Counted from the first letter of the whole stretch, positions 25,685-60,979 are shown. The stretch: 63,741 nt of DNA, filler included, from Chrysochromulina tobinii (GCA_001275005.1; 7 parts of 7 records of this genome joined end to end with filler, not necessarily neighbours in it); one strand, 5' to 3'. Made by a program: numbers and translations. The notes: generated by a model not told the origin, from the letters alone.

Positions 25685-25784
25685 NNNNNNNNNNNNNNNN
25701 NNNNNNNNNNNNNNNNNNNNNNNNNNNNTTAATTAATTAANNNNNNNNNNNNNNNNNNNNNNNNNNNNNNNNNNNNNNNNNNNN
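25685..25784. other. Artificial contig linker
   Basis: N44-TTAATTAATTAA-N44. Confidence 0.99.
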
Positions 25785-35972: not shown

Positions 35973-36072
35973 NNNNNNNNNNNNNNNNNNNNNNNNNNNN
36001 NNNNNNNNNNNNNNNNTTAATTAATTAANNNNNNNNNNNNNNNNNNNNNNNNNNNNNNNNNNNNNNNNNNNN
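35973..36072. other. Artificial contig linker
   Basis: N44-TTAATTAATTAA-N44. Confidence 0.99.
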
Positions 36073-39000
36073 GCCGCCTTCGCCGCCGCCCTCGCCGCCT
36101 CCGCCCCCGCCGCCGCCCTCGCTGCCGCCCTCGCCCCCGCCACCCTCGATGCCGCCCACGCAAATGGTGCGCGCGCTCGCGCTGCTCTACGAGGCCACGG
36201 GCGGCGACACGTGGCGCAACAACTTCAACTGGCTGTCCGGCGAGCCGTGTGTCGACGGCTGGTTTGGCGTGCACTGCTGCCCCCAGTCACTCCCGGTCCT
36301 ACGCGGAGACGACGAGTGCACCGCCGATGGCGGCGGTGCCACTGGCGTGCGCACAACGCAGGGCAGCGCCGCCTGCCACTCGGGATCAGTCACGGGCACC
36401 GCGCTCGACCTCGCCACCTGCGTCGTCGTCAAGGTGCTGCTGCCGTCCAACAACCTGATCGGCTCCCTCGAGGGCGCGCTCGGCGACCTGCAAAACCTGC
36501 AGCACCTCGACCTCTCAGGCAACGCGCTGTTCGGTGCGCTGCCGTCGACAGCAGACTGCCTACCGCAGCTCACGTCACTCGACCTGGCGCAGACGCGCTC
36601 GTGGGACGACCAGGGCGGCGTCACCGGCACCGTGCCCGTGTGGCTCCTCGATCGCCTCAAGTCGCTGGCGCCGCTGCGCCTCGCCAACAATGCCTTCGAC
36701 GACCCGACGGCCGCCGAGTCCGCTGCCGCGATCCGCCGACTCTGGCTGCGTTGCTCGACGCTCGGCGCGGAGCAGTGCTCGGGCGTGCCGCCGATTGGCT
36801 GCAGCGCCTTCAACCGCCAGGGCCAGCGCTACGAGGTAAAGCTCGACGGCCTCGGATGCGTGCGCTGCCCGACGCCCCTCGAAATCATCGGCATCGCCGT
36901 TGTCATCGCGGTCGTCGTGCTGTTCCTTGTGCTGGGCGTGGGCGGGTTCACGCGCTTCATGCGCAAGTACCCGGAGTACGCCAAGACCCACGTCGCCTCG
37001 TTCATGATCATTGTGGGCCACCTGCAGATGCTCACCATCATCGGCAGCATGCAGCTTGGCTGGCCGCTCGTCATCCAGCAGATCCTCGCGAGCATCAACC
37101 TGCCGCTCATGGGCTACATCCCGTTGCCGTGCATCCTGACCGACCCGGTGCTCAAGGCGCTGCTGAGCTACGCGGAGACCGCCGTCGTGCTGCTGCTGCT
37201 CGTGAGCTTCTGGGTCGTCGCGCAGTGCTCGCGCAAGGCGTGGGCCGAATACAACCTGAGCGTGCTCTTCGGCTTCCTCTTCACTGTCGGCCTCCGTGCG
37301 AGCGCGACCCTCTTCATGCGCTACGACGAGGACCAGACTCGGCTGATCATCGCCCGCCTCGTGGCGACGCTCCTCTGGCTCTTCTGGCTCTTCCTGCTCC
37401 GGCGCTTCCGCGGGCTGCTGGTGACGGCGGCGGCGGCAGAAGCGAGGGCGGCTGCGGCAAAAGCGTGGGTTGAGGCAGCGACTGAGGCGGCGGAGGCGGC
37501 GAGGGTGGCGAGGGCGGCGAGGGCGGAGGCAGTGCTCTTGCAGAAAAAGGCGCGCGGCGCGGCAGATGCGGTGCGCTACCTGACCGAGCGGTACAGGAGC
37601 GACGACGGCCCGGGCGGCGCGCGCTGGCCGCTCCGCTCGCAGTGGCAGCTCGTCGTGTGGGCGCGGCAGGGGCTTCTCTTCCTCGTGTCCTTTTTCATGG
37701 ACTGTGTGATGTCGTTCTCGCCGTACGAGGCGCACCGGGCTGCACGCTACGTCTTCGCCGCGCTCGCGATCGCGGTCCTCGGCGGCTTCTGGCAGCTGCA
37801 GGCCTGGCGTCGGCCGTACGCGATGCCTCGGCACTATTGGCTCGAGGCCCTCCTCTACGCGGTCGACATCTCGGCCATCGTTCTTGCCTGCTTGTATGGC
37901 GCACACACGAACGACGGCGCGGTGCAGGATGGGTTCGGGCGGCTGGCGCTCGAGCTGATCCTTGGTGCGCTGCTCATTGTCTCCGTGGTCGGTGCGGCGA
38001 TGCGTGTCTTCTGGGACGTCACGGAAGAGCGCAAGAGGTGGCGTGAGTGGGTGCCTCCGTCCCTTCCAACTATTGATGAACCAATCGAGGCCGCCCTCCG
38101 CGACGGCGCGGTGCGCCTCATCGACTGTGCCTGGCTGCTGGATTACGATCGCTCGGATAGGCAGCTGCCGCGCGTCACCAAGGTGGTGGCACGCCTCTCT
38201 TCCAACGAGCCGACGGGCGTGCTGATTCGTCGGTTGGCGACGCACTGCGGGACCTCGTCCATCTGCATCACGCTGGAGGTGGCCTCGGCAGCCTCGCTGC
38301 CCCCCTCGCCGCCTCCCTCTCCTCCGGAGGTGCAGCCCGAGCTGGCCGAAGCGGGTGGTCACCGACAGGGTGGCGGAAGAGCTGGCGCGAGGATGAGGCA
38401 GGAGCAGGAAGAGTTCGATCAGGAAGAGTTCGATCTGGCGCTCGCTCTCTCTGCGTCGCTGGCTGAGCAAGAGCAAATAGAAGAACGCGACCGCCTCGCC
38501 GCCGCAGCGCGCGTCGCCGGTCGGACGGGCGTGAACGAGCGCACGGATGCTTCGCCTGCTCAAAGCTCGACGGTGATTGCACCACGGAGCAGCGCGCCCC
38601 TGGCCAGCGAGCCCCCACTCCACCACAACGACTCGATTCCGTTGCCGCTGCAACCAAATAGATCACGATCGGCCATGCACGAGCGCAACGAGCCGGCGCG
38701 CGTGCACGCGACGGGCGTGAGAACGCGCACGAATGCGTCACCCCTTCAAAGCTGGACAGCGCTTGCACGGTGGTGGAGCAGCGCGCGAGTGGCACCCGAG
38801 TTCGCAGCCAGCGCTCCGCCGCCGAGCTCTGATTCGAATTCTTTTCACGTCACCTTCCACCTCAGCACGTTCAACGAGGTCGCCCCGCTCACCGCAGCCG
38901 GCCTGCGCCGCAAGGCCGAGGCGGTTAAGGAGAGGCTGGCTGTGCTTGGGGCCGAGGGCATCAGAATTGTCACGGGAAAGCCCTTTCTGCCACGCTGCCA

Positions 39001-40465
39001 GGACATGCCGGAAGAAGCTTTCCTGGAGCCCCAGGACGCCGCGGCCCTCTTCAGGCGGCCGCGGCGCGGCGTTCGTGGCGCTCGTGTCCTCAGCTACTGC
39101 TGGCGCATGCCTGGCATGCCCGACCCCGACGGCTGCACGCTTGAAAAGATCCGCGGCTACATGAACCTGGAGAGGGGCAGACAAGGCGGCGAGTACGGTC
39201 TTTTTGTGGACGTTGCTTGCCTGCCGCAGAACTATGCGTTGCCGTCGTGGCACGCCATGGAGGCGATCACGAAGCGCTTCGGCACCGAGGCGGACATTGG
39301 CCCACTCACCGTGCTCAAGTTTGAATTGGAGCACGTCGCCACGGAGGAAGAGGCGCAGGTTTGCGTCGACAAGGTCGTCTCCCTATGCGAGCAACAGCGC
39401 TGGGAGCTGGCCCCCCTGGCGGACTTTGAGAGCCTCGGCCTGAGCTCGCGCGGCCACGTCAGTGTGCTCGTCCAAGAGCGTTACATCATGGGCGTGAGCC
39501 GCTTCGACAAGGGAGCCTCTCCCGAAGGCTACGTGCGCTTCCGCACGCCTCACGACGCGAACGCGGCACGGCACCATCCAGACTTCATGTTCGGCGGCAA
39601 GGAGCCAGAGCTGATGGGCGAGCACGTCTTCGAGAATGAGCTCAAGTTCAAGCGCGGCCTCTCCGTCATGGGCTGCCTCTACGCGTCCGCCACAGGTACC
39701 TGTGTGCTGCAGCTCAAGGCACCGCCAGGCGAGCTCAATGGTGACGACGTCGCGCCGAGCGAGCTCGTCTCCGAGCGCATGGGGACCGTCTTCGTCGTGT
39801 CGCTCAGAGACAAGTCGCTCGATGAGCCAGCACGCCGTCGCTGGCTCGAGGAGCTGCACGAGGAGCTGGGTGACGGCGTAATGGCCTGCGAGAAGGGGCC
39901 CTGGGGTGAGGTAGTGGTGCGTGTTTATGGCGAGACGGCGGCACGCGCCGTGCGCACGCTGAACGAGGGCGGCTACCCGCTTCGTCGCAAGGATCGCGTG
40001 GTGTACCCAGTGTACAACTTGCGGCCGTACGGCTCGCGCGGGTGGCCGACCTTTGAGACGTCCGCTGCCTCGATTGTGCTCGCGCACCACACGCAGCGAA
40101 CGCCTCCCGTCGCGCAGGCGGAGGAGAGCGGTCCAAAGCTCATCAACATCGACCTGATCGACGCCCCACGTGTGGTGGAGGTCGTGCAGTCACCGGAGCG
40201 CCACCTCCTGCAGTGCAAGAAGAAACTGCTCTCGAAGCAAATCTTTTTCACCGGGAAAGGCGACCAGAAGGATGTCGTCCAGCTGCTCTTTGATTTTGAG
40301 GACTCAGTCTCGGTAGAGGTTGATCAGAGGCGCGCCAGACACTCGAAGTTCTCAACAGAGGACCTCGAGCACGAGCATGCCGCGAGGCAGGAGTATGCCG
40401 AGAGGCTGGGCGATGCGCGCAGGACGCGATCCCGCAAGCTGCTGCAGCGCCTCACCTTCCTCTAG
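36073..40465 (+). CDS. LRR receptor-like multipass membrane protein with cytoplasmic UIM and HET/TIR-like domain (5'-truncated)
   Basis: LRRNT cap (LYEATGGDTW...NW...C..WFGVHC), plant-type LRRs (LQHLDLSGNALFGALP), 8-9 hydrophobic helices, UIM EEFDLALALSASLAE, HET-like motifs VLSYCW/HPDP-like PDPDG, FVDVACLPQ, MGCLYA, YGSRGWPTFE. Confidence 0.8.
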
Positions 40466-40626
40466 GAGCCGATTCCTCACCTTCCTCTAGGAGCCGATGC
40501 CTTGCCTACCTCTAGGAGCCGATGCCTTGCCTTCCTCTAGGAGCCGATGCCTTGCCTTCCTCTAGGAGCCGATGCCTTGCCTTCCTCTAGGAGCCGATGC
40601 CTTGCCTACCTCTAGGAGCCGATGCC
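40451..40626. repeat. 25-bp tandem repeat x7 seeded on the stop codon of the LRR-HET gene
   Basis: CTTGCCTTCCTCTAGGAGCCGATGC units; the first copy contains the TAG stop. Confidence 0.95.
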
Positions 40627-41082
40627 CGTCCTCCACGTCTTCGGGCGCGTTGCCCTCTTGCCTTCCCGGGCCGACGCCTGAATGCATAGAATGGTTCTTG
40701 GTGGCGGATGACGTGCGTGAGTCCCGAGCGCCCTGGGCTACATTCGGAATGGGATTGGGACCGGATGCAAAGGTGTTGGCAGGGTGCGAAGGTGTGTGTG
40801 CAGCAGCCGCTCCATCGCATGGAACATGGGATTCTGGTCGCCGTTGTCCGACTCCGAGCCCAGGCGACGACATGGGCGACGATGGTCGATGTCGGTGAGT
40901 CGCAGTCGGTCCGGTCGCCGTGGAGCCCGCCCGCGAGGGCGACCTGGTGCGTGAGCTCCGAGCCGGTAAGGACCTCTCGGAACGGGAATCGCTAGGGGGC
41001 ATTTGCGCCGTACGGCCTTGTAGCGGGCGTTATGTTCATAGGGAGCATGCACCGTGGAGTTTTGTAACGCCACAACCACCGC

Positions 41083-42315
41083 TCACCGCTCCTCAACGCG
41101 CGCTCTGATCGCCCGTCCCACATGCGTCCCCATCGCAGTCCGCCGAAGCAGCAGCCGGTCGCCCACCCTCAAGTCCGTCACGCTCCTCGGCTCGAGCCCT
41201 GCCTCCCCCTCGACCATCACGCGAACCGTCTCGGCCTGCTGCAGGAAGACCTGCCCGCTGGCCCCGTCCGACTCGAAGGAGATGAGGAGCAAGGGGCGCG
41301 GCTCCACCTTGCAACGACCCACCGTGAGCGACCGTTGACTCCCCTGCGCATCGGTGATGAGCACCTGGTCACCAGGTCGAATCTCGTCCAGGTACTTGGT
41401 CGTCTCGTCGGCGAGCAGTACGTACGAGTGCACCGGGCCCGCGTTGACACGAAACGGACGCGCGGGCACGAGGGCCCCGTGGAGCGTCTCGCCGTGGACG
41501 AGGCTGAGCAGCTTGGCAGATGAGCCCACGAGGGCGCCTTCGCCCACGCGCAGCAAGCTCGTGAAGTCGAGGGCGACCCGATCGCCGACGCCGCCGCTCG
41601 CCACTGCGGTGACGACACCAACGCTGAGCGCCGTCGTGGTCAGCGCCGGCGCGTCCTCGGCAACGGCGAGCTCGTCGGCGATCTCGTCGGCGAGAGCCGA
41701 TGAGCGCGCCAATGCGCGCGTTTCGTCAATCTCGGTGCGCTGGGCTCGCGCGATCGACCCCGCCTGCCACAGCATCACTCGCCGTACGTCGTCCTCCTCG
41801 TCTGGCGGCGCGAGGACCAGCGCGCCCACGCCCAGCTGCAACGCAAACGCGAGGCCTGGGACTTGCTGCGCACTGAGCGCCGTGACCGCTACCTGTGACG
41901 GCGTGCCATCGCACACGGAGACGAGGTTCTCCGCCGGGATCATCGTCCACTCCGCCTCGGTGGTAGCATCGAGGTGAATCCAGCTGGCCGAGCCCACAGC
42001 GGCCATCGCGGCCGACTGACCGGCGGGATCAGCGGCCATCGCTCGCACTCCCAGTCGCTCGCCGGCGAGGCCGAGGAGAGGCGCTGTCGGCTGATCGAGC
42101 GGCATCGGTGCGGCAGAGATCACGTCGCACGGAGGAAGATCCTCCGGGATACCATGCAACGTGACCGAAAGCCAGTCGACGAGAATCGCGTCAACGGGTG
42201 CATTGGCGGCGCCCTCACACTTGGAGAGTGCGGCGGACATATCCGGCGAAGCCACGGCGCGCAAATCAGCCCAGAGCTTCATCGCGGTGCAGAGGAGATG
42301 GACGACGACGAGCAT
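41083..42315 (-). CDS. 3-dehydroquinate synthase type II (archaeal/plant DHQS family)
   Basis: IPAENL, GDRVALD.TSLL..GEG.LVGS, RPFRVNAGPVHSY, TKYL.E, VGRCKVE.RPL, LQQAETVR, HVG.....VEER. Confidence 0.92.
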   Translation of the reverse strand: MLVVVHLLCTAMKLWADLRAVASPDMSAALSKCEGAANAPVDAILVDWLSVTLHGIPEDLPPCDVISAAPMPLDQPTAPLLGLAGERLGVRAMAADPAGQSAAMAAVGSASWIHLDATTEAEWTMIPAENLVSVCDGTPSQVAVTALSAQQVPGLAFALQLGVGALVLAPPDEEDDVRRVMLWQAGSIARAQRTEIDETRALARSSALADEIADELAVAEDAPALTTTALSVGVVTAVASGGVGDRVALDFTSLLRVGEGALVGSSAKLLSLVHGETLHGALVPARPFRVNAGPVHSYVLLADETTKYLDEIRPGDQVLITDAQGSQRSLTVGRCKVEPRPLLLISFESDGASGQVFLQQAETVRVMVEGEAGLEPRSVTDLRVGDRLLLRRTAMGTHVGRAIRARVEER

Positions 42316-42595
42316 ACACCGCGCAGCACGCGTGGTGAGCGCGCGACGCTCTAAGAAAACAAACACCACATTGTGCTTGGGTCGAAATCAAACAGTGGCT
42401 ATGAAAACACCTCTGAGGAATTCTGCTGTTCAACACAACGCGCGCGCGCGCCGACCCCAGGCGGCGGAATTCACCAGCGCCTCGGCACGGCGCGACGTCG
42501 GCTCCCCGCGGGAAACACGCCCACTACAACCACGTTCCGAGATCATTCGGACTTCGCCACCCTGCACAGCCCGTCCACCGTCGACGCCGATTTCG

Positions 42596-44128
42596 TCACG
42601 CGGCGGGCACGACGCCCACGCCGCTCTCGATCGCCATCCACTCGAGCCATCGCGGCACCTCGTTACCGGTGCGCTGGAGCAGCACGGCGAGCTCCGAGAT
42701 GAGCGCTCGCGACGACGCGTCGGTCACAATCGTGGTCTTGCGACCCGAGTGGCCGCCTCGGCCAGTAAGGCTGAGCCGTTGGGCGTATTCTGCCATCGAG
42801 CTTGGCAGGTCGAAGCTGATGACGTTCCCAATCGGGCCGAGCTGCGCAATCTCGTCCGCGAGAGATCCGAGCGCCGTATCGGTGGCGACGAGGACCCGCG
42901 CACTGCCGCTCGCGAGCCGTGCGAGGAGCGCGTCCTTCTCGGCGCGCTTCGGCCTGTCCGTCGCGATCGCGGCCACCGGGAAGCCCTCCTCCTTGAGGAA
43001 GTACTCGACCGCCTCGCACTGCCGACGCGACCCGACGAAGACGAGACTCAGGCACGGCACCGTCGGCGGCGGCGCACTCGCCGTGGTGTGAATGTGAATG
43101 CTCGCCACGGCGCTCGCGCTGCCGCCGCTGCTGCCGCTGCTGCTAGAGGGCGGCGCGGCGGGGGGCGCGGCGGCCGCCGACGAGGGCGGCGGCACGAGCG
43201 CCGTCGCGGGCGCGGGCAGCGCGCCGCTCGAGTCCTTGCCCGCCCGCAACAGCGCCGCGAGCACCGGCTGCTTGCCCGTTTCGTGCCATCGGGTTTCGTC
43301 ACAGAAGGCGACGCCCTGGCGGACGAGGGGTGTGAAGGCCTGGGCGATCCACGGCTGCGCGGCGGTCAGCTGCACGTGCCCGAGCACGCCGCCCTTGAAC
43401 AGAAACGGCGTCACGCGACGCAGGGGTGCCGTCAGCGCGGCGCACGTGACGAGGGTTTGACGTTCCGCCGGGAGCGGCAAGCCTTCGTCAAGCACGACGC
43501 GCCGCAGGTGCGCGTCGTACCCGCCATCAAACGTGGCGTCGGCGCCGATCAGGACGAGGTAGCGTACGGCGCGCAGCGAGATCGACCCTCGCTCGAGGAG
43601 GTCGTGGAGTCGGCCAGGCGTCGCCACGACGAGGCCCGCCGAGGGCTCGCATGCACTGACGCTCGCGTCGATGGGGACGCCGCCGCACGCGAGCGCGCAT
43701 CGCACGCTCGTGCCATGCGCGAGGGTGCGCGCCGCGTCGGACGCGTACGTAGCGAGCTTTCGCGTGGGCGTCAGCACTAGCGCGCGCGGCTGGCACTTGG
43801 CCGTGGACGCCTTGGGGTCGACGGTCGAAGGCGGCGGCCGCGTGTCGAGCGCGAGCATGCCGATGAGCGCGAGCATGATCGGCGCGACCTGCTCGTCACC
43901 GCGCGGTGCGGCGCCCACGATGGCGAGGTCGCGACCCGCGAGCACGAGCGGCGCCGCGTACTTTTCGAGCGGCGGGATCTCCCGATCGGCGACTGCCTTG
44001 AGGAGCGGTGCGGGCAGCTCCGAGAGCTCAGCGTACGTTGCGATCGGCATGCGCAAGGGCAGGTCGGGGCCATCGCACTGGATGGTGTACTGCAGCCCGC
44101 TCTCGTCGTTCGTGCGCGGAGCGGCCAT
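42596..44128 (-). CDS. DDX3/Ded1-like DEAD-box helicase homolog with degenerate catalytic motifs
   Basis: Retains P.ALVLTPTR.LA, GG, ATPGRL.D, RQTL, LVFV, VLVATD, VI.FDLP, L......EVP.WL. Walker A, DEAD, SAT and HRIGR are altered. Confidence 0.85.
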   Translation of the reverse strand: MAAPRTNDESGLQYTIQCDGPDLPLRMPIATYAELSELPAPLLKAVADREIPPLEKYAAPLVLAGRDLAIVGAAPRGDEQVAPIMLALIGMLALDTRPPPSTVDPKASTAKCQPRALVLTPTRKLATYASDAARTLAHGTSVRCALACGGVPIDASVSACEPSAGLVVATPGRLHDLLERGSISLRAVRYLVLIGADATFDGGYDAHLRRVVLDEGLPLPAERQTLVTCAALTAPLRRVTPFLFKGGVLGHVQLTAAQPWIAQAFTPLVRQGVAFCDETRWHETGKQPVLAALLRAGKDSSGALPAPATALVPPPSSAAAAPPAAPPSSSSGSSGGSASAVASIHIHTTASAPPPTVPCLSLVFVGSRRQCEAVEYFLKEEGFPVAAIATDRPKRAEKDALLARLASGSARVLVATDTALGSLADEIAQLGPIGNVISFDLPSSMAEYAQRLSLTGRGGHSGRKTTIVTDASSRALISELAVLLQRTGNEVPRWLEWMAIESGVGVVPAA

Positions 44129-44229
44129 CGAGGCGGAGACGATAGAGATGAGGTTCCGTGCGCCTCGAATCGGGTTCGTCATTCCGTCGCACAGTTTCAC
44201 AGAAGAAAACTGAAAACTCCTCGACGCCG

Positions 44230-44653
44230 CGTTCGTCGCAATTGAGAGCGGGTTGAGCGTCAGAGCGAGCAGCAGCAGCAACGTCTTCAATCGGGTGGCG
44301 CCATGGATTGCGCCTTGATACTCTTTGAAGACGAACAGCCCGTACAGCATGCCAGTGACGCCAGCGGCACAGCCGAAGCCGAAGGCGACCGGGCTCGAGA
44401 TCCCCGCGTGCAGCTCGGCAAAGTAGCACAGGTAGCCCACTGCGATGCACACGCCCGCGCTACTAGTCCAGACCACCTGACGCCGAGTGAGCCCGAGCCC
44501 TGATGTTGGTGATGAGGCTTGAGCGGGATGCAATATGAATATCAGAGGCCATCAGAGGCAATCAGCGAACCATCTGACGCCGAGTGAGCCCGCGGACTTG
44601 GGCGCCGTGTCGAGCGAGTTCGGTCTCCTCTTGGAAGAGACACCCATACGCCT
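44230..44653 (-). pseudogene. Fragment of a DMT/TMEM144-like membrane transporter with one intron (44477-44570)
   Basis: AG...VGYLCYF...PVAFGFG...GMLYGLFVFKEYQG resembles the DMT C-terminus. No upstream part or own stop is evident. Confidence 0.45.
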
Positions 44654-44892
44654 GCACGACGAAAGGGATATTGTACAATCTCAACACACTGAACACAATC
44701 ATCTCAACATGACAGATACACACGCAGTTGCAGATACAATCTCCTTCAATCGTACCGGTAACTCCAAGGAGGCCATCTCCTTTCCATCACAAAGAACCTT
44801 TCCACCATGCGTTCCATAGTACGCGCATGTGCATGAGTACCCCTCGCGGTCCTCCCTTGCGCGCCTTGGGCAACAGCTCAAAGAATGCTCCC

Positions 44893-46917
44893 TCAATATG
44901 CCTCAAACCCGTACTCAACTTGCCTGCTTGCTTCGTTCGCTTGGGTTGCTTGCTTGCTTGTTGTGCTTGCTACGATCGCCGCGAGCCACTCGGTGGGTGG
45001 CACCAACTGGATTCGCAACTCCACCTCGGCCGCCCCCAGGACCGATCCGAAGGCCCTTTGGAACTCGCCTGCACGAAAGTGCTCATTGTCGTACGGCACT
45101 GGCGCCTCGTTCACGAAGAGGAGGATGCGGTCGACGGGGATGCGTGAGGAAGTACTCTTGTCCTGACGGTAGTACTCTTTGAGCAGAGGTAGGACGAGCT
45201 TCTCCTTCATCACGCTGCGCGGATTGTTGACGTCGGACATATTGATGCTCCATGAGAAACGCACCTCGTGTCGATACCCCTCGGGCAGCTGGGCCGTGTC
45301 CTTCGGTCCGGCGTCGGCATGCACGATGACGCTCAGCGGAAGCATCTGCTTCACATTCACGGCTGTCTTGGCCGCTTCTTTGGCTGCCAAGGCAGCCGCG
45401 GCGGCCTCCTCCTTTGCGGCCTTGGCAGCGTCCTTGGCGCTTTCGTCCTCCACTACGGCACCACCGCGAGAGCGTACGAGCGCCGTAAGCCACTCGCGGG
45501 GCGGCACGAACTGCAACCGCACCTGCACCACTGACGGGTCCGACTTGGGCAAACTAGCCGACTCGGGCAAGGGCGCCGACTTGGGCGAGGGCGCCGACTT
45601 GGGCGACTTTTTCTTGGGCGACTTTTTCTTCTTGGGCGAGGAGGAAGCTTCCTTCTTGGATGTCTGGTCACGCTCGTTGGACGTTGCGCCCGTCGTGATG
45701 ACCTCGGACGCGGCGGTATGCACATCTGCTGGTGCGAGTCCTTGCATGACGAGCTCCTCTTTGCTCAAGGCGGCACCGTCCTCGCCTTCAATGTACGGGA
45801 ACGCCTTACCGGCCTTGACTGTTGCATCCTCGGCACTGACACCCACATCCTCGGCACTGGCACCCACTGCCTCGGATCCGGCCCCCAGGACTGCTCCGAA
45901 GGCCCTTCGGAGCTCGCCTGCACGAAAGTGCTCATTGTCGTACGGCACCGGCGTCTCGTTCACGAAGAGGAGGATGCGGTCGACGGGGATGCGTGAGGAC
46001 GTACTCTTGTCCTGACGGTAATACTCTTTGACCAGAGGTTTGACGAGCTTCTCGTTGAGCAAGCTGCGCGGATCGTTGACGTCGGACATATTAATGCTCC
46101 AAGAGAAACGCACCTCGTGTCGATACTCCTCGGGCAGCTGGGCCGTATCCTTCGGTCCGGCGTCGGCATGCACGATGACGCTCAGTGGAAGCATCTGCTC
46201 CTCCTTCGGGGAAGCCTCTCCCTTCTTCTTCTTCTTCTTGGTGCCACTGGATGCCTTGGCGGAAGTGGCAACGATCCTTGACGAAGGCGCCGGCGAGCTC
46301 ATCTCCGGTTTCTCTGGTTGTTTGGCGAACGTCAACAGCTGCCCGAGCCTTGCTCCGCGGGAATTTCTACGGGCATCAGACCTCGGCGTCCCAGTGACTG
46401 GTGCAATCTCCGCGGGCAAGATCGCCGTCGCGTCATCATCTGTGGCCACCCGTGGTGGAATCTCCGTGAAGATTAGCGTCGCGTCATGGTCGGTGGCCGC
46501 CACGTCCACCACGTCGGCCGCCCTGCCAAAGACTGCCTCGGAGCCCTCCTCCACCTCCTCCTCCACCTCGCCCTCCGCCTCCTCAGCGGGCGTAGCATCC
46601 ATCGCTGGGGAGAGGACGTGGATGACGGCCTCCTCGTCACTATTCTCCTCGTCAAGAGCAGCACCATTGTCCACGATGACCTGGCCGCGCAGGCTCATAA
46701 GTGCGGTTTTCACCTCCTTCATCGGCACCCTGCCCATGCTGAGTGGCGCAAGCATGGCATCGATCTCCGCATCACTCAGTCCCTGCAGCTGTGCCAGATT
46801 CCTTCCGACCTGATTTTCGACGGCCTCCGCGAGGCCTGATAAATGATCGATGCCAGCCATGGCTAGCCAATCCGCGACGGGGTTCTCGGCCAGAGGCGAG
46901 ATCGTGTGCACGTCCAT
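44893..46917 (-). CDS. Hypothetical protein with SAM-like N-terminus and a ~105-aa domain present twice
   Basis: VADWLAMAGI...SAM-like; near-identical repeats at about 45030-45349 and 45880-46198. Confidence 0.75.
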   Translation of the reverse strand: MDVHTISPLAENPVADWLAMAGIDHLSGLAEAVENQVGRNLAQLQGLSDAEIDAMLAPLSMGRVPMKEVKTALMSLRGQVIVDNGAALDEENSDEEAVIHVLSPAMDATPAEEAEGEVEEEVEEGSEAVFGRAADVVDVAATDHDATLIFTEIPPRVATDDDATAILPAEIAPVTGTPRSDARRNSRGARLGQLLTFAKQPEKPEMSSPAPSSRIVATSAKASSGTKKKKKKGEASPKEEQMLPLSVIVHADAGPKDTAQLPEEYRHEVRFSWSINMSDVNDPRSLLNEKLVKPLVKEYYRQDKSTSSRIPVDRILLFVNETPVPYDNEHFRAGELRRAFGAVLGAGSEAVGASAEDVGVSAEDATVKAGKAFPYIEGEDGAALSKEELVMQGLAPADVHTAASEVITTGATSNERDQTSKKEASSSPKKKKSPKKKSPKSAPSPKSAPLPESASLPKSDPSVVQVRLQFVPPREWLTALVRSRGGAVVEDESAKDAAKAAKEEAAAAALAAKEAAKTAVNVKQMLPLSVIVHADAGPKDTAQLPEGYRHEVRFSWSINMSDVNNPRSVMKEKLVLPLLKEYYRQDKSTSSRIPVDRILLFVNEAPVPYDNEHFRAGEFQRAFGSVLGAAEVELRIQLVPPTEWLAAIVASTTSKQATQANEASRQVEYGFEAY

Positions 46918-47069
46918 CAGCAAAAGAGGGAGAGACCGTCCGGTCTCGCAAGAGACTAATTCCGCAACTAATCACCGAAACTGATTTCGAAACTATTTTA
47001 GATAAGAACTTCGGAGAAGAATTTCGGATACATGAAGATTGTGACATTCATCTTGGAGGCGTCCAAAGC

Positions 47070-49726
47070 TCACTTCTTCCCAAAGTTCTTCCCAAAGCTG
47101 ATCACGTCCTGCTCCGCTGGGTGCTCCGCCTTCGGCAGCTTGGCAGCGCCCTTGCCCCCGAACGTGCCCGCTGCCTTCTTTGTGGTGACCGTAGGCGCCC
47201 GCGACTGCGCGGGCGTCGTGCTGGTCGACGGCACCGTCACCGTCGCAGGCGGAGGAGGCTTGAGCTTCGGAGTGACGCACCGTGTGGGGGCAGCCTTGGT
47301 GGCGCTCGACACGGCGCTCGTGCTCCCGCTGCTGCTGCCGCCGCCGCTTGCCGCCGCCGGCTTCGTCACAGCCGGCTTCGTCACAGCCGTCACAGCCGGC
47401 TTCGTCACAGCCGCCGGCTTCGTCACAGCCGGCTTCGTCACAGCCGTCACAGCCGGCTTCGTCACAGCCAACGCTGCCATACCGCCCGCCGCGGCGCCCT
47501 TGTCCGGCACAGCAGTAGCACCGCATCTCTCCTTTGACCTCACCTCCAGAGGACGCTCACGACTGGACTCGCCTCCAGCCGTCAAAGGTTTAGTCAAAGG
47601 AAGTTCCTCATCTTCGCTCACGCTGTCCATCTGAGCCTCCCTCATTAGGGAGGACGCCAGCTTGCAAGTACGGCCAGCTGTGCCTCGAGCCGCCTTGAGG
47701 GACTTCCCCACAGCCGCCTTGAGAGACTTCCCCACAGCCCGTCCCCCCACGACCCCAACGGCTCCCCCCCCCATCGAGGAGCCACGTGGCTTTGGCGCCC
47801 TTCGCGCCAAACTGAGCGCTTCGAGCCGCTCCTCCAAACGCGTCGTCTTGAGCGCTCGAAAGTAGCCGCGGCATGCATGCGCGCAGCCGAGGAAGACCAT
47901 CAACACGAAGCCGATCGCGAGCATCAGTGGCCCCGTGTCCGTCGGCTGGGCACGCCCGGGACGACGGCCCCCCAACACCGGTGCGCTGGCGTTGGCGGCG
48001 GCGGCGCATGCTGGGCAGATGCTGAGGACGTCGGTGGAAGAGAGCGAGGCGAGCGCTGCAAGCTTGCTGGCCTCTGCTGAGCCTTCGAGCGGCAGCGACC
48101 AGTTCTTACTCACCTGTGATCCGGGGGGGCAATCAGAGGTCATCAGAGGTCACTCACCTGTGATCCGGGGGGGCAACAAGACGACAGCCGAAGGGCCTTC
48201 AGAGGCCATCAGAGGCCATTAGAGGTCATTTGCGAATCTGCTGTCATCAGCGGCACGCACAAGTCCGCCAGTATCATCGCTATCTGGGTTGAGTGCGAAG
48301 TAGAAGATGCCAAAGCCGCGCTGCTTGAGGTACGGGATCGCCCAGTCTTGCCACTGACGATCCTGATCGGTGTATCTCCCCCCGATCTCCCCGAGCACGA
48401 TTGGTCTGTGGGTGAGCTGCTGCGCGAACGCAAAGTGCGCCTCCCACACCTGATGAGGGACGCCATCAGGGTGAGCTGCTGCGCGAACGCAAAGTACGCC
48501 GCCCACACCTGATGAGGGTCGCTATCAGGGGAGAGGGAACTCAGCGGCCATCGGTGCGCCACCCTGACCTCGGGCATATTGGCGGGAAAGCGCTGGTCAT
48601 CAAAGTAATGCTGCTGGTACACTGACGGGCCGTACACATGGGGCGAGTAGACGAGCTTCTCCTGGTTGGACAGGTGCACCTGTGACAGGGGTGAGTGGGG
48701 GTGAGTGGGGGTCCAGGCTCATCACCTGCTGAAGCCGCGTGCAGCGTCTAAAGGGAGTAGAGGATGGCAGCGCGTCTAAGTAAGGCGAATTAGAGGCGCA
48801 TTATAGAGGCTCATTCGAGGCTCATTAGAAGCTCATTAGAGGCTCATTCAAGAGGCGCATCACCTGCTGCACACGCGCTCCGATGAGGTTCTCGCCCCAC
48901 CAGATGCCCGCTCCTGGGTCGTCGCCATTAGGTGCGCCCGGGTTATATCCGACCCCCTCGACAAAGATCAACCATCGAGGGCATTCACGCAGGACGTGGT
49001 CGCCGAGGTCCTCCGCACCCAAATTCCAATCGATCGCCAACCCTTTGGCCCACGACGCGCCGTGCGGCTCGTTGGTGATGCTGCGTACGCGCGGCGCAAG
49101 CGCGCCCAGGACAGCACGCCAGACCACGTGGGCTCAGCGCGAGAAAGCAAGTGGGGAGTGGCCTCGAGGGCTCTGAGGGCGCTCGAGATTCGTTCGAGAT
49201 GGCGGCTCGCGCACTCGGCGGCGATCACGTTCCACTCGCCACAGAGGACGGCCGCGAGCTTGCTCCAAGACGTCTTGACACGCGACACGGGCCAGCCGAT
49301 GTCGTCGTCGTACCAGAGCCCTTTGCCAGGCCACGCGTCATGCCTCAGCCGGTGCGCGGCCACCATGACAAGCATGCCGCGCTTGGCGGCCTCGCGGCAA
49401 AGGATGGTGAACATCTCGAGGTAGCGCGTCTGGAAGAATAACGGGTCCTCCGACTCGGCGGTGTGCACGATATCGTCCTTCTCGATGAACTCGTGCGCAA
49501 ACAGCAGCCGGATCGCGTTGAACTTGTGCCGCTGCAGGAAGTCGAGGTAGAAGCCGACCGGGTGCCTGTCGAGGCCTCCGGGCGGACCGCAATACGTTTC
49601 GCTGCCGAACCAATTGATGCCCTTGATGTGGAAGGCGTTGTCGCCGCTGACGGAGGCGTACAGCGTGCCGTCGCGGCCGCTGAGCTCGAAGAGGTCAGTG
49701 GCGCTGCGGCTCGCGCCAATGCCCAT
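47070..49726 (-). CDS. GH5 endoglucanase/cellulase with C-terminal TM and basic repeat tail; exons 49726-49215, 49080-48864, 48679-48569, 48449-48261, 48113-47070
   Basis: IKGINWFGSET, FNAIRL, AAD|ITNEPHG (acid/base E), VEGV, WWGENL, VYSPHVYGPSV, LGEIGG (nucleophile E), NPDSDDTGGL|VSKNW; GT-AG introns keep the frame. Confidence 0.9.
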
Positions 49727-50264
49727 GCGCCTCGCCGGCGCGCTGAGCCTGAGGCTCGTCACAGAGGAACGCGTGGCTGTTCGGGTTTAATACATGTACA
49801 AACGCATGCAATATATGAAAATGAAATAAACACGATAGTTTGAAAAAGGTTTCGTCACATCACTATAACCGAGCCGAAGCCAGGAATATCAATAGTCTCC
49901 GCACCTACGGCGATGCCCCATGGGCTAGCCACTGGCGCCGCGCCGGACGTCACTGCCGCCGCCCCCACGTCCTGCAGATAAGCACACACACACGCCGCTC
50001 TCTCAACAGCTCGCGACGACTCTGCGAGCCCGCTTCCTTCACGGACCACACTCGTACGCAGGCTGCACACCCCAATATGAAGCACGCCTCATTCACAGCC
50101 TCATTCACAGCCAGCCGTCAATCCTCAAATTGGACGCCCATCACGACGCCCGAGCCGACGATCCGCCAAAGCGCCCGCCAAAGCGCCCAATCGGACCGCG
50201 CACAAGGCCGCCCCCACGCACGTAGGCATGCCACTCACCAAGGCCGCTTCACTTGCCCACGGCC

Positions 50265-52085
50265 TTACATGCCAAACGCGTCCAAAAAGTCGTCGGCCGT
50301 CGCGTTGCCGCCGTGCACGTCGACCTCGGACGCGTCAAACTTGTGCATGCCGCCCGCCACCTTGACGCCCTGGGCCTCGAGCGCCTGCATCTTGGCGATC
50401 CTCTCGTCCTCCTCCTTCTCCTTCTGCTTGGCTTTGAGAGCGTTCTCCTCAATCTTCTTCTTCATCTCCGCCGCCTCCTGCTCCTTGAGCGCCTTGAGGT
50501 CGAATGCCGGCTCCGACGGTGCGGCCGGTGCGGCGGCGGCGGCCTTGGGCGGCGGCGGCGGCGCGCCCGAGAGCAGCGCAGCGAGCGCCTGCAGCGGGTT
50601 CTCTGGCCGAGTCTTCGAGATCGTATTGAGCGCCGCGTTGAGCGTGGGCATCACCTGCTTGAGGTACGCGGCGAGCTCCGTCTTTCCCTCATCCATCTCG
50701 GTGATCTGCTCAGGTGTGGGCACGAACTGCGGCGGCGAGGGGCCCTTCTTGGGCTTGCCGTAGATCTTCTCCATCGTCGTCACGAAGGGGATGAAGGTCG
50801 TTCCGCCCATGTACTCGACCAGCGCATCGGGTACCTTGATGCCGCACTTGGTCTGGTAATTCTCGATGACGCAGCAGAGGGCACGCTCGGTGGCGCAGAG
50901 CGTCGAGTTGAGCATGTGGCAATAGAGCTTCTTGCCGTCCTCGGTCTTGCCCTGGGTCCCAAAGCGCACCTCGAGCCGGCGCGACTGGTAGTCGGTGCAG
51001 TTCGAGCAAGAGACAAGCTCGCGATGCGCCTTGGAGCCTGGGAACCATGCCTCGAGGTCGTACTTCTTGGCGGCCGCGTCGTTCAGGGCGCCCGAGACGA
51101 TGTTGACGACGCGGTACGGGATGCCGAGCGACTGGTAAAACTCTTTGCAGTTGTTGATCATCGTCTGCTGCATCTGCTCCGACTCGTCGCCGATCGGCGA
51201 GGTGACGCAGAACTGCTCAATCTTCTCAAACTGGTGCACGCGGAAGATGCCTGCTTGGTCTCGTCCGTGCGAGCCTGCCTCCTTGCGGAAGCAGGTGGAG
51301 TAGCCCGCGTACTTTTTGGGCAGCGCCTTCGGGTCCATCCACTCCTCGTAGTGGTACCCGCACAGCGGTTGCTCGGAGGTGGCGATCAGGTACTGGTCCT
51401 CGGCGCCTCCGGTGACCTTGTACAGCTGCTCATCAAAGTCGGCGAGCTGCGCCACCTTACCCATGAGCGACTTGTTCATGACGAAGGGCGTCTGCACCAT
51501 CGTGTGCCCGCGCTCCGAAAGGAACTGCACCCCGTACGAGATCAGCGCCTGGTTGAGCCGCATGCCCATCCCAGTCAAGAAGTAGCCGCGCGAGCCCGCG
51601 ACGACCGAGCCCTTGGCCGTGTTCGCGAGGCCGGCGAGCTGGATGAGGTCGTAGTGCGAGAGCATCCATTCCTCGCTCTCGAAGACGCCGTTCGCGTCCT
51701 CCACGCGGTTGTTGTCCTCGTTATCGGACACGGGCACGTCATCGGGCACAAGGTTGCCGATCGTGACGAGCGTGGTGTCGCGCGCCTCGATGAGCTCCTT
51801 CTCCTTGGCCTCCAGCTTCGTGATTTCGGCCTCGGCATCCTGCTTCTCCGCCATCAGCTCGGGAGGCGGGGCCTCCTTCTTCTTCATGAACTCGCCAATC
51901 TTCTTCTGCACCTGGTTCAACACCTTTTTGGCATTGTCGAGCCCGCCGCGGGTCGTGCGCCACTCGGTGTCGAGCTCGATCACCTTGTCGACCAGCGAAA
52001 CATCCTTGTGGCGCCGCCGCTGCGACTCACGCACGATGTCCGGGTTGCCGCCCCGGTCGACGCGAAATAGGTCGATGTCCAGCAT
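50265..52085 (-). CDS. SARS1: Cytosolic seryl-tRNA synthetase with C-terminal Dpy-30/RIIa-like extension
   Basis: MLDIDLFR, IGNLV, YLIATSEQPL, CFRKEAGSHGRD..GIFRVHQFEKIEQF, ELVSCSNCTDYQSRRL, HMLNSTLCATER. Confidence 0.98.
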   Translation of the reverse strand: MLDIDLFRVDRGGNPDIVRESQRRRHKDVSLVDKVIELDTEWRTTRGGLDNAKKVLNQVQKKIGEFMKKKEAPPPELMAEKQDAEAEITKLEAKEKELIEARDTTLVTIGNLVPDDVPVSDNEDNNRVEDANGVFESEEWMLSHYDLIQLAGLANTAKGSVVAGSRGYFLTGMGMRLNQALISYGVQFLSERGHTMVQTPFVMNKSLMGKVAQLADFDEQLYKVTGGAEDQYLIATSEQPLCGYHYEEWMDPKALPKKYAGYSTCFRKEAGSHGRDQAGIFRVHQFEKIEQFCVTSPIGDESEQMQQTMINNCKEFYQSLGIPYRVVNIVSGALNDAAAKKYDLEAWFPGSKAHRELVSCSNCTDYQSRRLEVRFGTQGKTEDGKKLYCHMLNSTLCATERALCCVIENYQTKCGIKVPDALVEYMGGTTFIPFVTTMEKIYGKPKKGPSPPQFVPTPEQITEMDEGKTELAAYLKQVMPTLNAALNTISKTRPENPLQALAALLSGAPPPPPKAAAAAPAAPSEPAFDLKALKEQEAAEMKKKIEENALKAKQKEKEEDERIAKMQALEAQGVKVAGGMHKFDASEVDVHGGNATADDFLDAFGM

Positions 52086-52494
52086 GCTTGAGGGTTTCTC
52101 CCGTCGGCGCGCTTGCGATACTCACTATCAGATTATCGCGTGACACGCGGTTCATCTGGAACTGTGAACGTGATTGGTCGTGTGAGAACTACTACATTTT
52201 TGTGCTCCTTTCACAATCATTAAGTCCGAGGTTTCCAGGGGTCGCATCCTTACGGCGATCCCGGAGCGCCGAACTCGCGGCACAACTCGCCTGTGGAAAC
52301 CTCTCTGGCACCGCGACGACCTCGCCACCCACCAACCCTGTGGACCGAGGTTTGCAGGTTTCCATCGAATTTTTTTTCGAGCGTCGCGAAAAGAAACCGA
52401 GCGAGCCGAGTGCTTGCGTTCGCTTTCCGAGCGATCGCTCGCATTCCTCTTGCTCGTCGTGGAGCACATCCAGCGCGTCGTCGCCCCTTCTTCG

Positions 52495-53641: not shown

Positions 53642-53741
53642 NNNNNNNNNNNNNNNNNNNNNNNNNNNNNNNNNNNNNNNNNNNNTTAATTAATTAANNN
53701 NNNNNNNNNNNNNNNNNNNNNNNNNNNNNNNNNNNNNNNNN
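53642..53741. other. Artificial contig linker
   Basis: N44-TTAATTAATTAA-N44. Confidence 0.99.
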
Positions 53742-58142: not shown

Positions 58143-58242
58143 NNNNNNNNNNNNNNNNNNNNNNNNNNNNNNNNNNNNNNNNNNNNTTAATTAATTAANN
58201 NNNNNNNNNNNNNNNNNNNNNNNNNNNNNNNNNNNNNNNNNN
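58143..58242. other. Artificial contig linker
   Basis: N44-TTAATTAATTAA-N44. Confidence 0.99.
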
Positions 58243-60879: not shown

Positions 60880-60979
60880 NNNNNNNNNNNNNNNNNNNNN
60901 NNNNNNNNNNNNNNNNNNNNNNNTTAATTAATTAANNNNNNNNNNNNNNNNNNNNNNNNNNNNNNNNNNNNNNNNNNNN
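60880..60979. other. Artificial contig linker
   Basis: N44-TTAATTAATTAA-N44. Confidence 0.99.

What the first reader, a model, noticed from the sequence alone, without database searches (positions are those of the whole stretch)
36073..40465. LRR ectodomain + multipass membrane core + UIM + HET/TIR-like effector in one polypeptide: candidate algal immune receptor
Seen: a Pro stalk, an LRRNT cap with plant-type LRRs, a Cys-rich juxtamembrane region and 8-9 TM helices. The cytoplasmic part has ALRDGAVRLIDCAWLL...LPRCQDMPEEAF...VLSYCW..PDPDG (~39090), FVDVACLPQ (~39205), MGCLYA (~39670) and YGSRGWPTFE (~40030). Established: these parallel the HET (PF06985) motifs ALSYxW, WIDxxCIxQ, MxxIY and RxWxxQE; HET is a TIR-related cell-death effector in fungal NLR-type systems. 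Inference: a Toll-like logic (surface LRR sensing linked to an NADase-like effector) built on a multipass scaffold. I do not recognise this as a described receptor class.
Basis: partly seen in the sequence, partly recalled or inferred. Interest (0 to 1): 0.78.

Follow-up and report, generated by a model that had tools for sequence, protein, structure and literature searches.

The report
Haptophyte LRR receptor with HET-like domain
This 5'-truncated gene of a Chrysochromulina-like alga encodes a plant-type leucine-rich-repeat surface domain joined through a predicted nine-helix membrane core to a conserved cytoplasmic domain that Pfam does not name and that is likely a distant relative of the HET/TIR cell-death and immune-signalling domains, so it would be a Toll-like receptor layout built separately in haptophyte algae.

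Summary
One uninterrupted ORF (36149..40465, 1438 aa) carries a Pro stalk, plant-type LRRs, a Cys-rich stretch, about 9 membrane helices and all four quoted motifs at the stated places. The gene is cut at its 5' end by a contig join. An identical-start metagenome contig keeps the frame open for 913 more codons.

The cytoplasmic part is a roughly 300-aa alpha/beta domain found in 370 cluster representatives, and every named one is a haptophyte protein. Pfam HET and TIR models miss it in 0 of 105 relatives scanned.

Support for a HET/TIR relationship is weak but consistent:
- It beats 229 of 230 column shuffles.

Here the domain is split by a 227-aa disordered insert and carries RRM/ferredoxin-like inserts. 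The UIM is a motif match present in only 2 of 30 homologues.

Topology is predicted N-out, C-in. The LRR is the most conserved part (omega about 0.35, against 0.6-1.2 elsewhere), which argues against an arms-race sensor. NADase activity and an immune role are untested.

Verdict: a real, undescribed variant of a known kind.

The parts
36074..36148 (+). Tail of a Pro/Ser-rich stalk, in frame and open to the contig edge. The rest of the ectodomain is missing from the window.
   Evidence: Searches show the joiner at 35973-36072. L003 is identical over the first 328 nt and stays open 913 codons further upstream. Paralogues carry the same stalk after more ectodomain and, in P0022, a signal-peptide-like start.
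36149..36868 (+). Ectodomain, aa 1-240. It holds an LRRNT-like cap (aa ~7-46), about 4 plant-type LRRs (aa ~92-190) and a Cys-rich juxtamembrane stretch (aa 196-240).
   Evidence: LRR_8 31.8 bits against cut-off 27. PDB best hit GSO1 at 4.2e-35, with 80 sequences at E<=1e-6. Median 85.5% identity to 17 homologues. Omega 0.29-0.53.
36875..38008 (+). Predicted 9-helix membrane core, aa 243-620. Helices at aa ~243-273, 275-300, 333-360, 364-391, 395-420, 495-523, 526-554, 560-588 and 595-620.
37409..37630 (+). Predicted cytoplasmic loop between TM5 and TM6, aa 421-494, Ala-rich and helical. This is where 10 of 29 paralogues carry a second, divergent copy of the cytoplasmic domain.
38069..38218 (+). 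N-terminal piece of the family domain, aa 641-690, including IDEPIEAALRDGAVRLIDCAWLL, directly after the last membrane helix.
   Evidence: Family HMM positions 29-60 match aa 607-684. In compact relatives the same motif is contiguous with the core.
38219..38899 (+). Poorly conserved, largely disordered insert, aa 691-917, that splits the domain. It contains the UIM-like motif at 38423-38476 (aa 759-776).
   Evidence: Median 37.5% identity. pLDDT below 50 for aa ~720-749 and 790-892. UIM pattern in 2 of 30 homologues. No Pfam hit. RNA-library contigs lie inside it and no clean splice joint is seen.
38162..38992 (+). Predicted ferredoxin-like module made of two halves (aa ~672-711 and ~897-948) around the disordered insert.
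38900..40381 (+). Core of the family alpha/beta domain, aa 918-1411. Conserved blocks: LPRCQDMPEEAF (38987-39022), VLSYCW..PDPDG (39086-39133), FVDVACLPQ (39203-39229), MGCLYAS (39668-39688), RGWPTFE (40037-40057), PKLINIDL (40133-40156), FFTGKGD (40244-40264).
39272..39652 (+). Insert A, aa ~1042-1168, between the FVDVACLPQ strand and the MGCLYAS helix. Predicted RRM/UHM-like fold.
39785..40018 (+). Insert B, aa ~1213-1290, between the TCVLQL strand and RGWPTFE. Predicted RRM-like fold.
   Evidence: Foldseek tandem-RRM matches span both inserts. Strand-helix-strand-strand-helix-strand pattern in AF2. RRM_1 hits in 5 of 41 compact relatives. No Pfam hit on this piece itself.
40382..40465 (+). 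C-terminal helical tail, aa 1412-1438, and stop codon. Paralogues continue here with kinase, PDZ, RING, zf-CCHH or EF-hand domains.

Best explanation
The uninterrupted ORF 36149..40465 (open up to the contig edge at 36073) encodes the last 1,438 residues of a haptophyte membrane protein with a plant-type LRR ectodomain, a predicted nine-helix membrane core and a family-conserved cytoplasmic alpha/beta domain that is likely a distant HET/TIR-superfamily module and would serve as the receptor's signalling output.

Shown directly:
- the ORF, the LRRs and the conserved motifs;
- membership of a large gene family whose named members are all haptophyte proteins;
- the split of the domain by an insert;
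- the 5' truncation.

Predicted:
- nine helices with the N-terminus outside and the C-terminus inside;
- a strand-helix core with the order LSYxW strand, FxDxx[CS]LPQ strand, MxxLYAS helix, VLQL strand, RGWxxFE helix;
- RRM/ferredoxin-like inserts in the loops that flank the conserved D, Q, W and E residues.

Inferred mechanism. A conserved extracellular ligand is bound by the short SERK-like LRR, or by the missing distal ectodomain. The change is passed through the membrane core and brings cytoplasmic domains together. The domain then acts either as a nucleotide- or NAD-cleaving enzyme, using the near-invariant Glu (E1303 here) as TIR and nucleoside deoxyribosyltransferase folds do, or as a homotypic scaffold. 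Paralogue-specific tails (kinase, RING, PDZ, EF-hand) would diversify the output.

A role in defence or cell death is plausible from the NACHT fusions but is not shown.
For: Architecture:
- One ORF.
- LRR.
- 9 helices and the positive-inside count of 18 against 6 K/R.
- Cytoplasmic-type domains (kinase, RING, PDZ, EF-hand) follow the domain in paralogues.
- A second copy of the domain sits in the TM5/TM6 loop in 10 of 29 paralogues, which fits an even number of helices between the two sites.
- Paralogue P0022 has a signal-peptide-like start upstream of the same stalk.

Family:
- 370 hits at E<=1e-3 among 1.84 billion representatives.
- Named members come from Chrysochromulina tobinii, Emiliania huxleyi and Haptolina brevifila.
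- LRR + multi-TM + domain recurs in distant members, including E. huxleyi P0206.
- The window protein keeps every invariant residue.

HET/TIR link:
- hhalign of the family (41 sequences) against 32 Pfam-positive bacterial HET proteins scores 28.2, E 0.014, with three blocks in the predicted register. 1 of 60 column shuffles reaches that score.
- A second family alignment (55 sequences) scores 26.9, E 0.01. 0 of 170 shuffles reach it.
- As a benchmark, the published HET-TIR link scores only 21.6, E 0.035, in the same set-up.
- NACHT fusions in P0088/P0180 (the latter named nlrc3 in C. tobinii) and in P0102.

Expression: contigs from four RNA libraries cover 22-26 of 30 bins, including the insert.
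Against: - Pfam HET and TIR models hit none of P0001, 64 distant relatives or 41 compact relatives, the last set even at E<=10. PADLOC hits 0 of 41.
- hhalign probability is only 3-4%, and one shuffle exceeded the first score.
- Family versus TIR_2 is at noise level, E 0.28 and 0.38.
- Foldseek finds no PDB or BFVD match at E<=0.001.
- Every Z for the core is under 6, where the tool warns that only a common arrangement may be shared. About a third of the rows are GT-B glycosyltransferase halves.
- The equivalence of E1303 to the TIR catalytic Glu was not checked on coordinates.
- The membrane part of the model has low confidence.
- The LRR is the most constrained region: omega is lower than in the TM and domain regions in 12 of 12 locus comparisons. 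Several of those loci are the same paralogue from different assemblies. That is unlike hypervariable immune LRRs.
- The RNA evidence consists of short contigs at 95-99% identity that may come from paralogues or from DNA in the libraries.
- L003 differs from the window in clustered patches, so some assembly chimerism among paralogues is possible.
Confidence: 0.5

Rival explanations
1. The architecture is as described, but the cytoplasmic domain is a separate, so far unnamed Rossmann-like alpha/beta fold family. Its resemblance to HET/TIR would be convergent or limited to a common strand-helix arrangement, and its chemistry would be unrelated, for example sugar-nucleotide or other ligand binding.
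Against: Three blocks align to HET with identical inner spacing (D-x-x-C/S-x-P; M-x-x-x-Y; R-x-W-x-x-x-E) and in the same order. The score exceeds 229 of 230 shuffles. The first-ranked hit in both VIA searches is a TIR. NACHT fusions fit a death/immune effector module.
Confidence: 0.25
2. The domain is HET/TIR-related but non-catalytic. It would work only as a homotypic adaptor, as animal TLR TIR domains do, in a housekeeping or developmental sensor of a conserved ligand (cell-cell contact, prey or environment sensing) and not in defence.
For: The LRR is the most conserved part: median 85.5% identity and omega 0.29-0.53. Paralogues share the sensor and differ in their output tails. Neighbouring genes are housekeeping and there is no defence cluster. 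HET enzymatic activity is not established (PMC10197012, passages read).
Against: Near-invariant acidic and polar residues (E in 54 of 55, D in 53 of 55, Q in 55 of 55) suggest a pocket and not only a protein surface. The family includes NACHT fusions. Omega of 0.6-0.9 in the domain is high for a housekeeping adaptor.
Confidence: 0.2
3. The long ORF is an artefact: a chimeric metagenome assembly of paralogues, two neighbouring genes read through, or a decaying pseudogene.
For: The gene sits at a contig edge. L003 differs from the window in clustered patches. 15 of 35 related loci break just upstream of the LRR. Omega near 1 in the TM region for some pairs.
Against: 1,438 codons with no stop in 66% G+C DNA. 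The exact protein and 10 close cluster members are on record from other contigs. Co-linear architecture appears in 17 or more homologues and in the E. huxleyi reference genome. All invariant family residues are kept.
Confidence: 0.05

Closest known systems
HET domain (Pfam PF06985), the fungal heterokaryon-incompatibility cell-death domain, also annotated in some bacteria, stramenopiles and haptophytes (PMC4986451, passages read)
   Same: Same order of conserved blocks with the same inner spacing: a strand ending in S-Y-x-W, then hydrophobic-x-D-x-x-C/S-x-P, then M-x-x-x-Y-x-(S/A) followed by a hydrophobic strand, then R-x-W-x-x-x-E. It is also found at the end of NACHT proteins and forms large, fast-evolving paralogue families.
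   Different: It is not recognised by the Pfam HET model (0 of 106 proteins). It has extra family-specific blocks (RRQDLPxEAF, HPDPxG, PKLxdI, FTGxgD). Here it is membrane-tethered after a multipass core, split by an insert and decorated with RRM-like modules.
TIR domains (PF01582, PF13676), including NADase TIRs of SARM1, plant NLRs, SPARTA and SpbK
   Same: TIRs are the best structural matches, over about 95-105 residues of the core. The strand-helix order is the same in the AF2 model. A near-invariant Glu sits at the start of the third helix in a W-x-x-x-E context; that this resembles the plant TIR SxWCLxEL motif is recalled, not tested.
Plant LRR receptor kinases and co-receptors (GSO1, FLS2, SERK/BAK1 ectodomains)
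   Same: Plant-type LRR consensus with an N-cap and Cys pairs (E down to 4.2e-35). The repeat number is short, as in SERKs.
   Different: It has nine predicted membrane helices, where those plant receptors have one. There is no kinase in this copy, though some paralogues add one after the family domain. The LRR follows a long Pro-rich stalk and further distal modules.
Toll-like receptors (LRR ectodomain, one TM helix, TIR)
   Same: The logic of an extracellular LRR coupled to a cytoplasmic TIR-like module.
   Different: Multipass core, plant-type LRRs, and a HET-like domain in place of a canonical TIR. No evidence of common descent of the whole architecture.
Membrane-anchored TIR proteins of Gephyrocapsa (Emiliania) huxleyi expressed during virus infection (PMC12489294, passages read)
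   Same: Haptophyte proteins with an extracellular region or several TM helices followed by a cytoplasmic TIR with a conserved Glu.
   Different: Those carry Pfam-detectable TIR domains and, according to the paper, no LRR. The present family is missed by such TIR searches.

Membership tests
HET (PF06985) | Scores above the Pfam gathering threshold | tested here: not met
   No HET hit for P0001 at E<=1, for 0 of 64 distant relatives at E<=0.01, or for 0 of 41 compact relatives at E<=10.
HET (PF06985) | Conserved blocks (S-Y-x-W-G; W-I-D-x-x-C-I/V; M-x-x-I-Y; R-x-W-x-x-Q-E) in order | tested here: met
   hhalign aligns blocks 2-4 in register with 32 Pfam-positive HET proteins. Block 1 (LSYxW) precedes them in the family alignment but lay outside the local alignment.
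HET (PF06985) | Significant profile-profile similarity | tested here: inconclusive
   E 0.014 at probability 3.2% and E 0.01 at probability 4.1%. 1 of 60 and 0 of 170 shuffles reach the scores. The HET profile is shallow and bacterial only.
HET (PF06985) | Induces cell death when expressed | not testable with these tools
   Needs expression in a host.
TIR (PF01582 / PF13676 and related) | Sequence or profile match to TIR models | tested here: not met
   No TIR family among the Pfam hits of 41 relatives at E<=10. PADLOC hits 0 of 41. hhalign against 30 TIR_2 domains gives E 0.28 and 0.38, within the shuffle range.
TIR (PF01582 / PF13676 and related) | Flavodoxin-like TIR fold | tested here: inconclusive
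TIR (PF01582 / PF13676 and related) | Catalytic Glu in the third helix, and NAD+ cleavage | not tested
   Glu is conserved in 54 of 55 family domains.
Plant-type LRR ectodomain | LRR models above threshold and similarity to solved LRR receptor ectodomains | tested here: met
   LRR_8 31.8 bits against cut-off 27. GSO1 at 4.2e-35, with 80 PDB sequences at E<=1e-6.
UIM (ubiquitin-interacting motif) | Match to the UIM model, and conservation across the family | tested here: not met
   No Pfam hit on aa 685-918 at E<=10. The pattern occurs in 2 of 30 homologues. Only a recalled consensus fits.
RRM / UHM fold (inserts A and B) | RRM model match or clear structural match | tested here: inconclusive

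The most novel reading that the evidence does not exclude
Haptophyte algae possess their own class of surface immune or death receptors. A plant-type LRR ectodomain is coupled through a nine-helix core to an enzymatic HET/TIR-like nucleotide-cleaving domain gated by built-in RRM-like lids. The same effector domain is reused in NACHT-type intracellular sensors. The family diversifies in its cytoplasmic output and not in its sensor, under pressure from giant viruses or bacteria.
Probability: 0.2. Interest if true: 0.85.

Novelty: new variant of a known kind. Interest (0 to 1): 0.6.

Why it matters
Haptophytes such as Emiliania, Chrysochromulina, Prymnesium and Phaeocystis drive blooms that are ended by giant viruses and programmed cell death, yet their sensing and death machinery is almost unknown.

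This family gives a concrete and testable candidate. It is an abundant effector-like domain with no Pfam, PADLOC or PDB sequence match: 370 cluster representatives at 50% identity. It is tethered to LRR receptors and also fused to NACHT.

If the HET/TIR link holds, two things follow:
- The Toll-like 'LRR outside, TIR-like inside' logic would extend to a fourth eukaryotic lineage, on a different membrane scaffold.
- It would offer a route to the still unknown biochemistry of HET domains.

It also corrects the older statement that E. huxleyi lacks LRR receptors (PMC2939053, passages read; compare P0206).

Tried and rejected
Searches that found nothing useful:
- Whole-genome search of the window's own assembly: not held.
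- ESM Atlas, two calls: only a MORN cluster at 0.76, then nothing.
- PDB profile search with the family alignment: two irrelevant hits at E 0.15 and 0.31.
- Foldseek against PDB and BFVD with the compact model: nothing at E<=0.001.
- PADLOC: 0 of 41.
- Profile search of the 5.8-billion-protein set with A2: 14 family members, none carrying a HET annotation.
- Pfam and PDB on the upstream ectodomain of L003: nothing.
- Earlier findings of this scan: nothing by place or by sequence.

Calls that failed:
- The search for related loci in viral contigs with A2 failed for lack of a conserved stretch and was not pursued.

Structure and complex predictions without a result:
- Complex prediction of two copies of the compact domain returned 'no answer', score 0.00, and the alignment was not used. 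This is no evidence either way.

RNA:
- Four lake metatranscriptome runs are held only as short contigs. Uncovered bins, and the joints 38283>38849 and 38330>38848 (which carry replaced letters and probably come from paralogues), say nothing about splicing. Whether one transcript spans the gene is not resolved.

Ideas considered and dropped:
- An intron in the low-complexity insert. It is open in frame and RNA-library contigs lie inside it.
- A conserved UIM. The pattern is present in only 2 of 30 homologues.
- A defence gene cluster. The neighbours are a DHQS II, a DEAD-box helicase and a seryl-tRNA synthetase.

Literature. Four searches found no description of this family. Supplements were not opened.
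Full report
**What is in the window.**

The window is seven contigs joined by N44-TTAATTAATTAA-N44 linkers. The finding lies at the very start of the contig 36073..53641. A single ORF runs from 36149 to 40465 on the + strand (1438 aa, P0001). Its frame stays open upstream to 36074 and reads a Pro/Ser-rich stretch.

The other ORFs listed over it are the usual long frames of 66% G+C DNA. The genes to the left of 36073 belong to another contig. The true neighbours on the right are housekeeping genes: a 3-dehydroquinate synthase II, a DEAD-box helicase and a seryl-tRNA synthetase.

**The gene is cut at its 5' end.**

A metagenome contig, L003, is identical to the window over the first 328 bases. 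It keeps the same frame open for 913 further codons. These encode:
- Cys-rich repeats;
- a beta-rich module of about 190 aa;
- a Pro-rich stalk of about 200 aa.

None of these has a Pfam or PDB sequence match. Paralogues P0011, P0017, P0021 and P0022 show the same stalk preceded by more ectodomain. P0022 starts with a signal-peptide-like sequence.

Fifteen of 35 related metagenome loci break within about 900 nt upstream of the LRR. The Pro repeat is probably what breaks the assemblies.

**Checking the observation.**

- *LRR.* The ectodomain is a plant-type LRR. LRR_8 scores 31.8 bits against a cut-off of 27 when the ectodomain is scanned alone. Eighty PDB sequences match at E<=1e-6, mostly plant LRR receptor kinases and SERK/BAK1-type co-receptors, the best being GSO1 at 4.2e-35.
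- *Membrane helices.* Hydropathy gives ten candidate segments. AlphaFold2 on aa 240-1438 gives nine long helices, with pLDDT only 40-80 there.
- *Topology.* With nine helices, the predicted cytoplasmic loops hold 18 K/R and the predicted outer loops 6.
- *UIM.* The UIM-like string fits a recalled consensus, but it has no Pfam hit and occurs in only 2 of 30 homologues.

**The family.**

HMMER with aa 640-1438 against 1.84 billion representatives finds 370 proteins at E<=1e-3 and 112 at E<=1e-10. Named members come from Chrysochromulina tobinii, Emiliania huxleyi CCMP1516 and Haptolina brevifila. The rest are unnamed metagenome proteins. The organism is therefore a Chrysochromulina-like haptophyte. 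The closest homologue is 97-98% identical.

Close homologues share the whole LRR-TM-domain layout. Many add further domains after it: kinase, PDZ, RING, zf-CCHH or EF-hand. Ten of 29 carry a second, divergent copy of the domain in the loop between helices 5 and 6.

Distant members take several forms:
- compact proteins of 300-500 aa, often one N-terminal helix plus the domain;
- LRR + multi-TM + domain proteins, including E. huxleyi P0206;
- MORN fusions;
- two soluble NACHT proteins, one of which clusters with a C. tobinii protein named nlrc3.

Up to four distinct loci occur in one metagenome assembly.

**Anatomy of the cytoplasmic domain.**

Compact relatives define a unit of about 300 aa. 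Its blocks, in order, are:

IDxxLxxALxDGxIRLLxCxWL / RRQDLPxEAF / LSYGWxTxxHPDPxG / FWDFxSLPQ / FxxxLxxMxxLYAS / VLQL / YNxxPYxxRGWCxFE / PKLxdI / FTGxgD.

In 55 aligned domains the residues W, Q, M, Y, S, G, W and F are invariant. E is kept in 54 and D in 53. The window protein keeps all of them.

In P0001 the unit is split. Profile positions 29-60 match aa 607-684, directly after the last helix, and positions 42-310 match aa 918-1411. Between them lies a poorly conserved (median 37.5% identity) and mostly disordered insert.

Three further modules are predicted:
- *Inserts A and B together* match tandem-RRM proteins: best Foldseek E 4e-3 at probability 0.96, with no row at or below 0.001.

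RRM_1 hits occur in 5 of 41 compact relatives, but not on the window's own inserts.

**Is it HET/TIR-like?**

*Sequence models say no.* Pfam HET and TIR hit neither P0001, nor 64 distant relatives, nor 41 compact relatives at E<=10. PADLOC hits none, and the PDB profile search finds nothing.

*A real HET profile for comparison.* I found one Pfam-positive HET gene among 401 bacterial genomes. I collected 62 relatives of it, all annotated PF06985, and aligned 32 of them.

*Family against HET:*
- hhalign of the family against this profile gives score 28.2, E 0.014, probability 3.2%.
- Column-shuffled controls average 15.8 (sd 3.4). One of 60 reaches the score, and reversed profiles give 18-20.
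- A second family alignment (55 domain-only sequences) gives 26.9, E 0.01, probability 4.1%. None of 170 shuffles reaches that score.

*Benchmark and direct TIR comparison:*
- The accepted HET-TIR relationship (PMC4986451, passages read) scores only 21.6, E 0.035, between the same HET profile and 30 bacterial TIR_2 domains. The test therefore has low power.
- Family against TIR_2 directly is at noise level, E 0.28 and 0.38.

*Structure:*
- AlphaFold2 of the compact relative P0077 is confident (pLDDT 88.6, pTM 0.88). It places the blocks on a strand-helix-strand-helix-strand-helix core.
- Foldseek finds nothing at E<=0.001 in PDB or BFVD.

*My reading.* A distant HET/TIR-superfamily relationship is more likely than not, at roughly two in three. 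The domain is not a member of Pfam HET or TIR as those families are defined.

**Topology and side.**

- nine predicted helices;
- the K/R count;
- a signal-peptide-like start in a paralogue;
- the Cys-rich ectodomain;
- cytoplasmic-type domains after the family domain;
- a second domain copy four helices upstream.

All of this is prediction.

**Selection.**

Among homologues the LRR ectodomain is the most conserved part. Median identities are 85.5% for the LRR, 72-73% for the membrane core and 64% for the domain.

Nei-Gojobori estimates against 12 paralogous loci give dS of about 0.2-0.3, so the expansion is recent. Some of these loci are the same paralogue from different assemblies.
- Omega is 0.29-0.53 for the LRR.
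- Omega is 0.66-1.16 for the membrane core.
- Omega is 0.61-0.90 for the domain.
- The LRR has the lowest value in 12 of 12 comparisons.

High G+C may inflate omega overall, but the contrast within one gene stands. This is the opposite of a hypervariable immune LRR. The family keeps one sensor and varies its membrane and output parts.

**Expression.**

Contigs from four lake metatranscriptome libraries cover 22-26 of 30 bins of the gene at 95-100% identity, including the insert. They show no clean splice joint inside the ORF. They are short and may come from paralogues or from DNA in the libraries. They cannot show a single transcript.

**Mechanism proposed.**

I take this to be a receptor. 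The following steps are all inferred:
- A conserved ligand is sensed outside.
- The nine-helix core transmits the change.
- Cytoplasmic HET/TIR-like domains are brought together.
- The pocket formed by the invariant D, Q, W and E residues then cleaves a nucleotide such as NAD+, or the domains signal as a scaffold.
- The RRM-like inserts sit in the loops that flank this pocket and could gate it or bind RNA.
- Paralogue-specific tails diversify the output.

NADase activity is not established even for HET (PMC10197012, passages read). A defence or death role rests only on the NACHT fusions and on the family's expansion.

**Known and new.**

Already in print:
- HET homologues in Haptophyceae (PMC4986451, passages read).
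- Membrane-anchored Pfam-TIR proteins of G. huxleyi that lack LRRs (PMC12489294, passages read).

Four literature searches found no description of this family or of an LRR / nine-helix / HET-like architecture. I did not open supplements. I file it as a new variant of a known kind.

Noticed in passing
window 13940-14039, 25685-25784, 35973-36072, 53642-53741, 58143-58242, 60880-60979: The window is seven contigs joined by N44-TTAATTAATTAA-N44 linkers. Genes on either side of a linker are not real neighbours.
   Followed up: yes
window 41083-42369 (-): This ORF matches only the C-terminal half (profile 163-344) of the archaeal-type 3-dehydroquinate synthase II (PF01959, 1.1e-64). The N-terminal half is probably in another exon. 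It is an unusual shikimate-pathway enzyme type for an alga.
   Followed up: no
window 50265-52085 (-): A seryl-tRNA synthetase ORF carries a C-terminal Dpy-30 motif (PF05186, 2.2e-06).
   Followed up: no
window 40479-40580: RNA-library contigs from two runs skip 75-100 bases just 3' of the stop codon, with CT..AC ends (GT..AG on the minus strand). This could be an intron of a minus-strand transcript or a 3'-UTR variant.
   Followed up: no
L003 compared with window 36875-37100 and about 39785-40018: L003 is identical to the window in the LRR, the domain start and the insert, but differs in clustered patches in TM1-2 and in RRM-like insert B. This suggests gene conversion among paralogues or a chimeric assembly.
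   Followed up: partly
L026 and L027 (two ends of one 32-kb metagenome contig): Two paralogues of the receptor lie on one contig. In addition, 15 of 35 related loci end within about 900 nt upstream of the LRR, at the Pro-rich repeat.
   Followed up: partly
L003 3253-5991 (+): The missing distal ectodomain holds several CxxxCDDGGPGxxxxxCxxGTDCxxCG-type Cys-rich repeats, His/Ser/Pro-rich linkers and a beta-rich module of about 190 aa. It has no Pfam or PDB sequence match.
   Followed up: partly
L156 117-1990 (-): In a bacterial genome the only Pfam HET gene found among 401 genomes has two same-strand neighbours just upstream of it. One is a 146-aa TIR-like ORF (KVFFSFKYED...) and the other a 211-aa SLOG/LOG-like ORF. 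It looks like a small defence-type cluster; the names were judged by eye only.
   Followed up: no
window 34494-35846 (-), on a different contig: A 450-aa ORF with a coiled-coil-like N-terminal part and three EF-hand-like loops near the C-terminus (DQDHSGSVD, DTDGSGTVD, DQGGSGQID).
   Followed up: no
P0206 (E. huxleyi EMIHUDRAFT_195665): The E. huxleyi reference genome encodes an LRR + multi-TM + family-domain protein. A 2010 survey stated that LRR receptors are absent from E. huxleyi (PMC2939053, passages read).
   Followed up: partly
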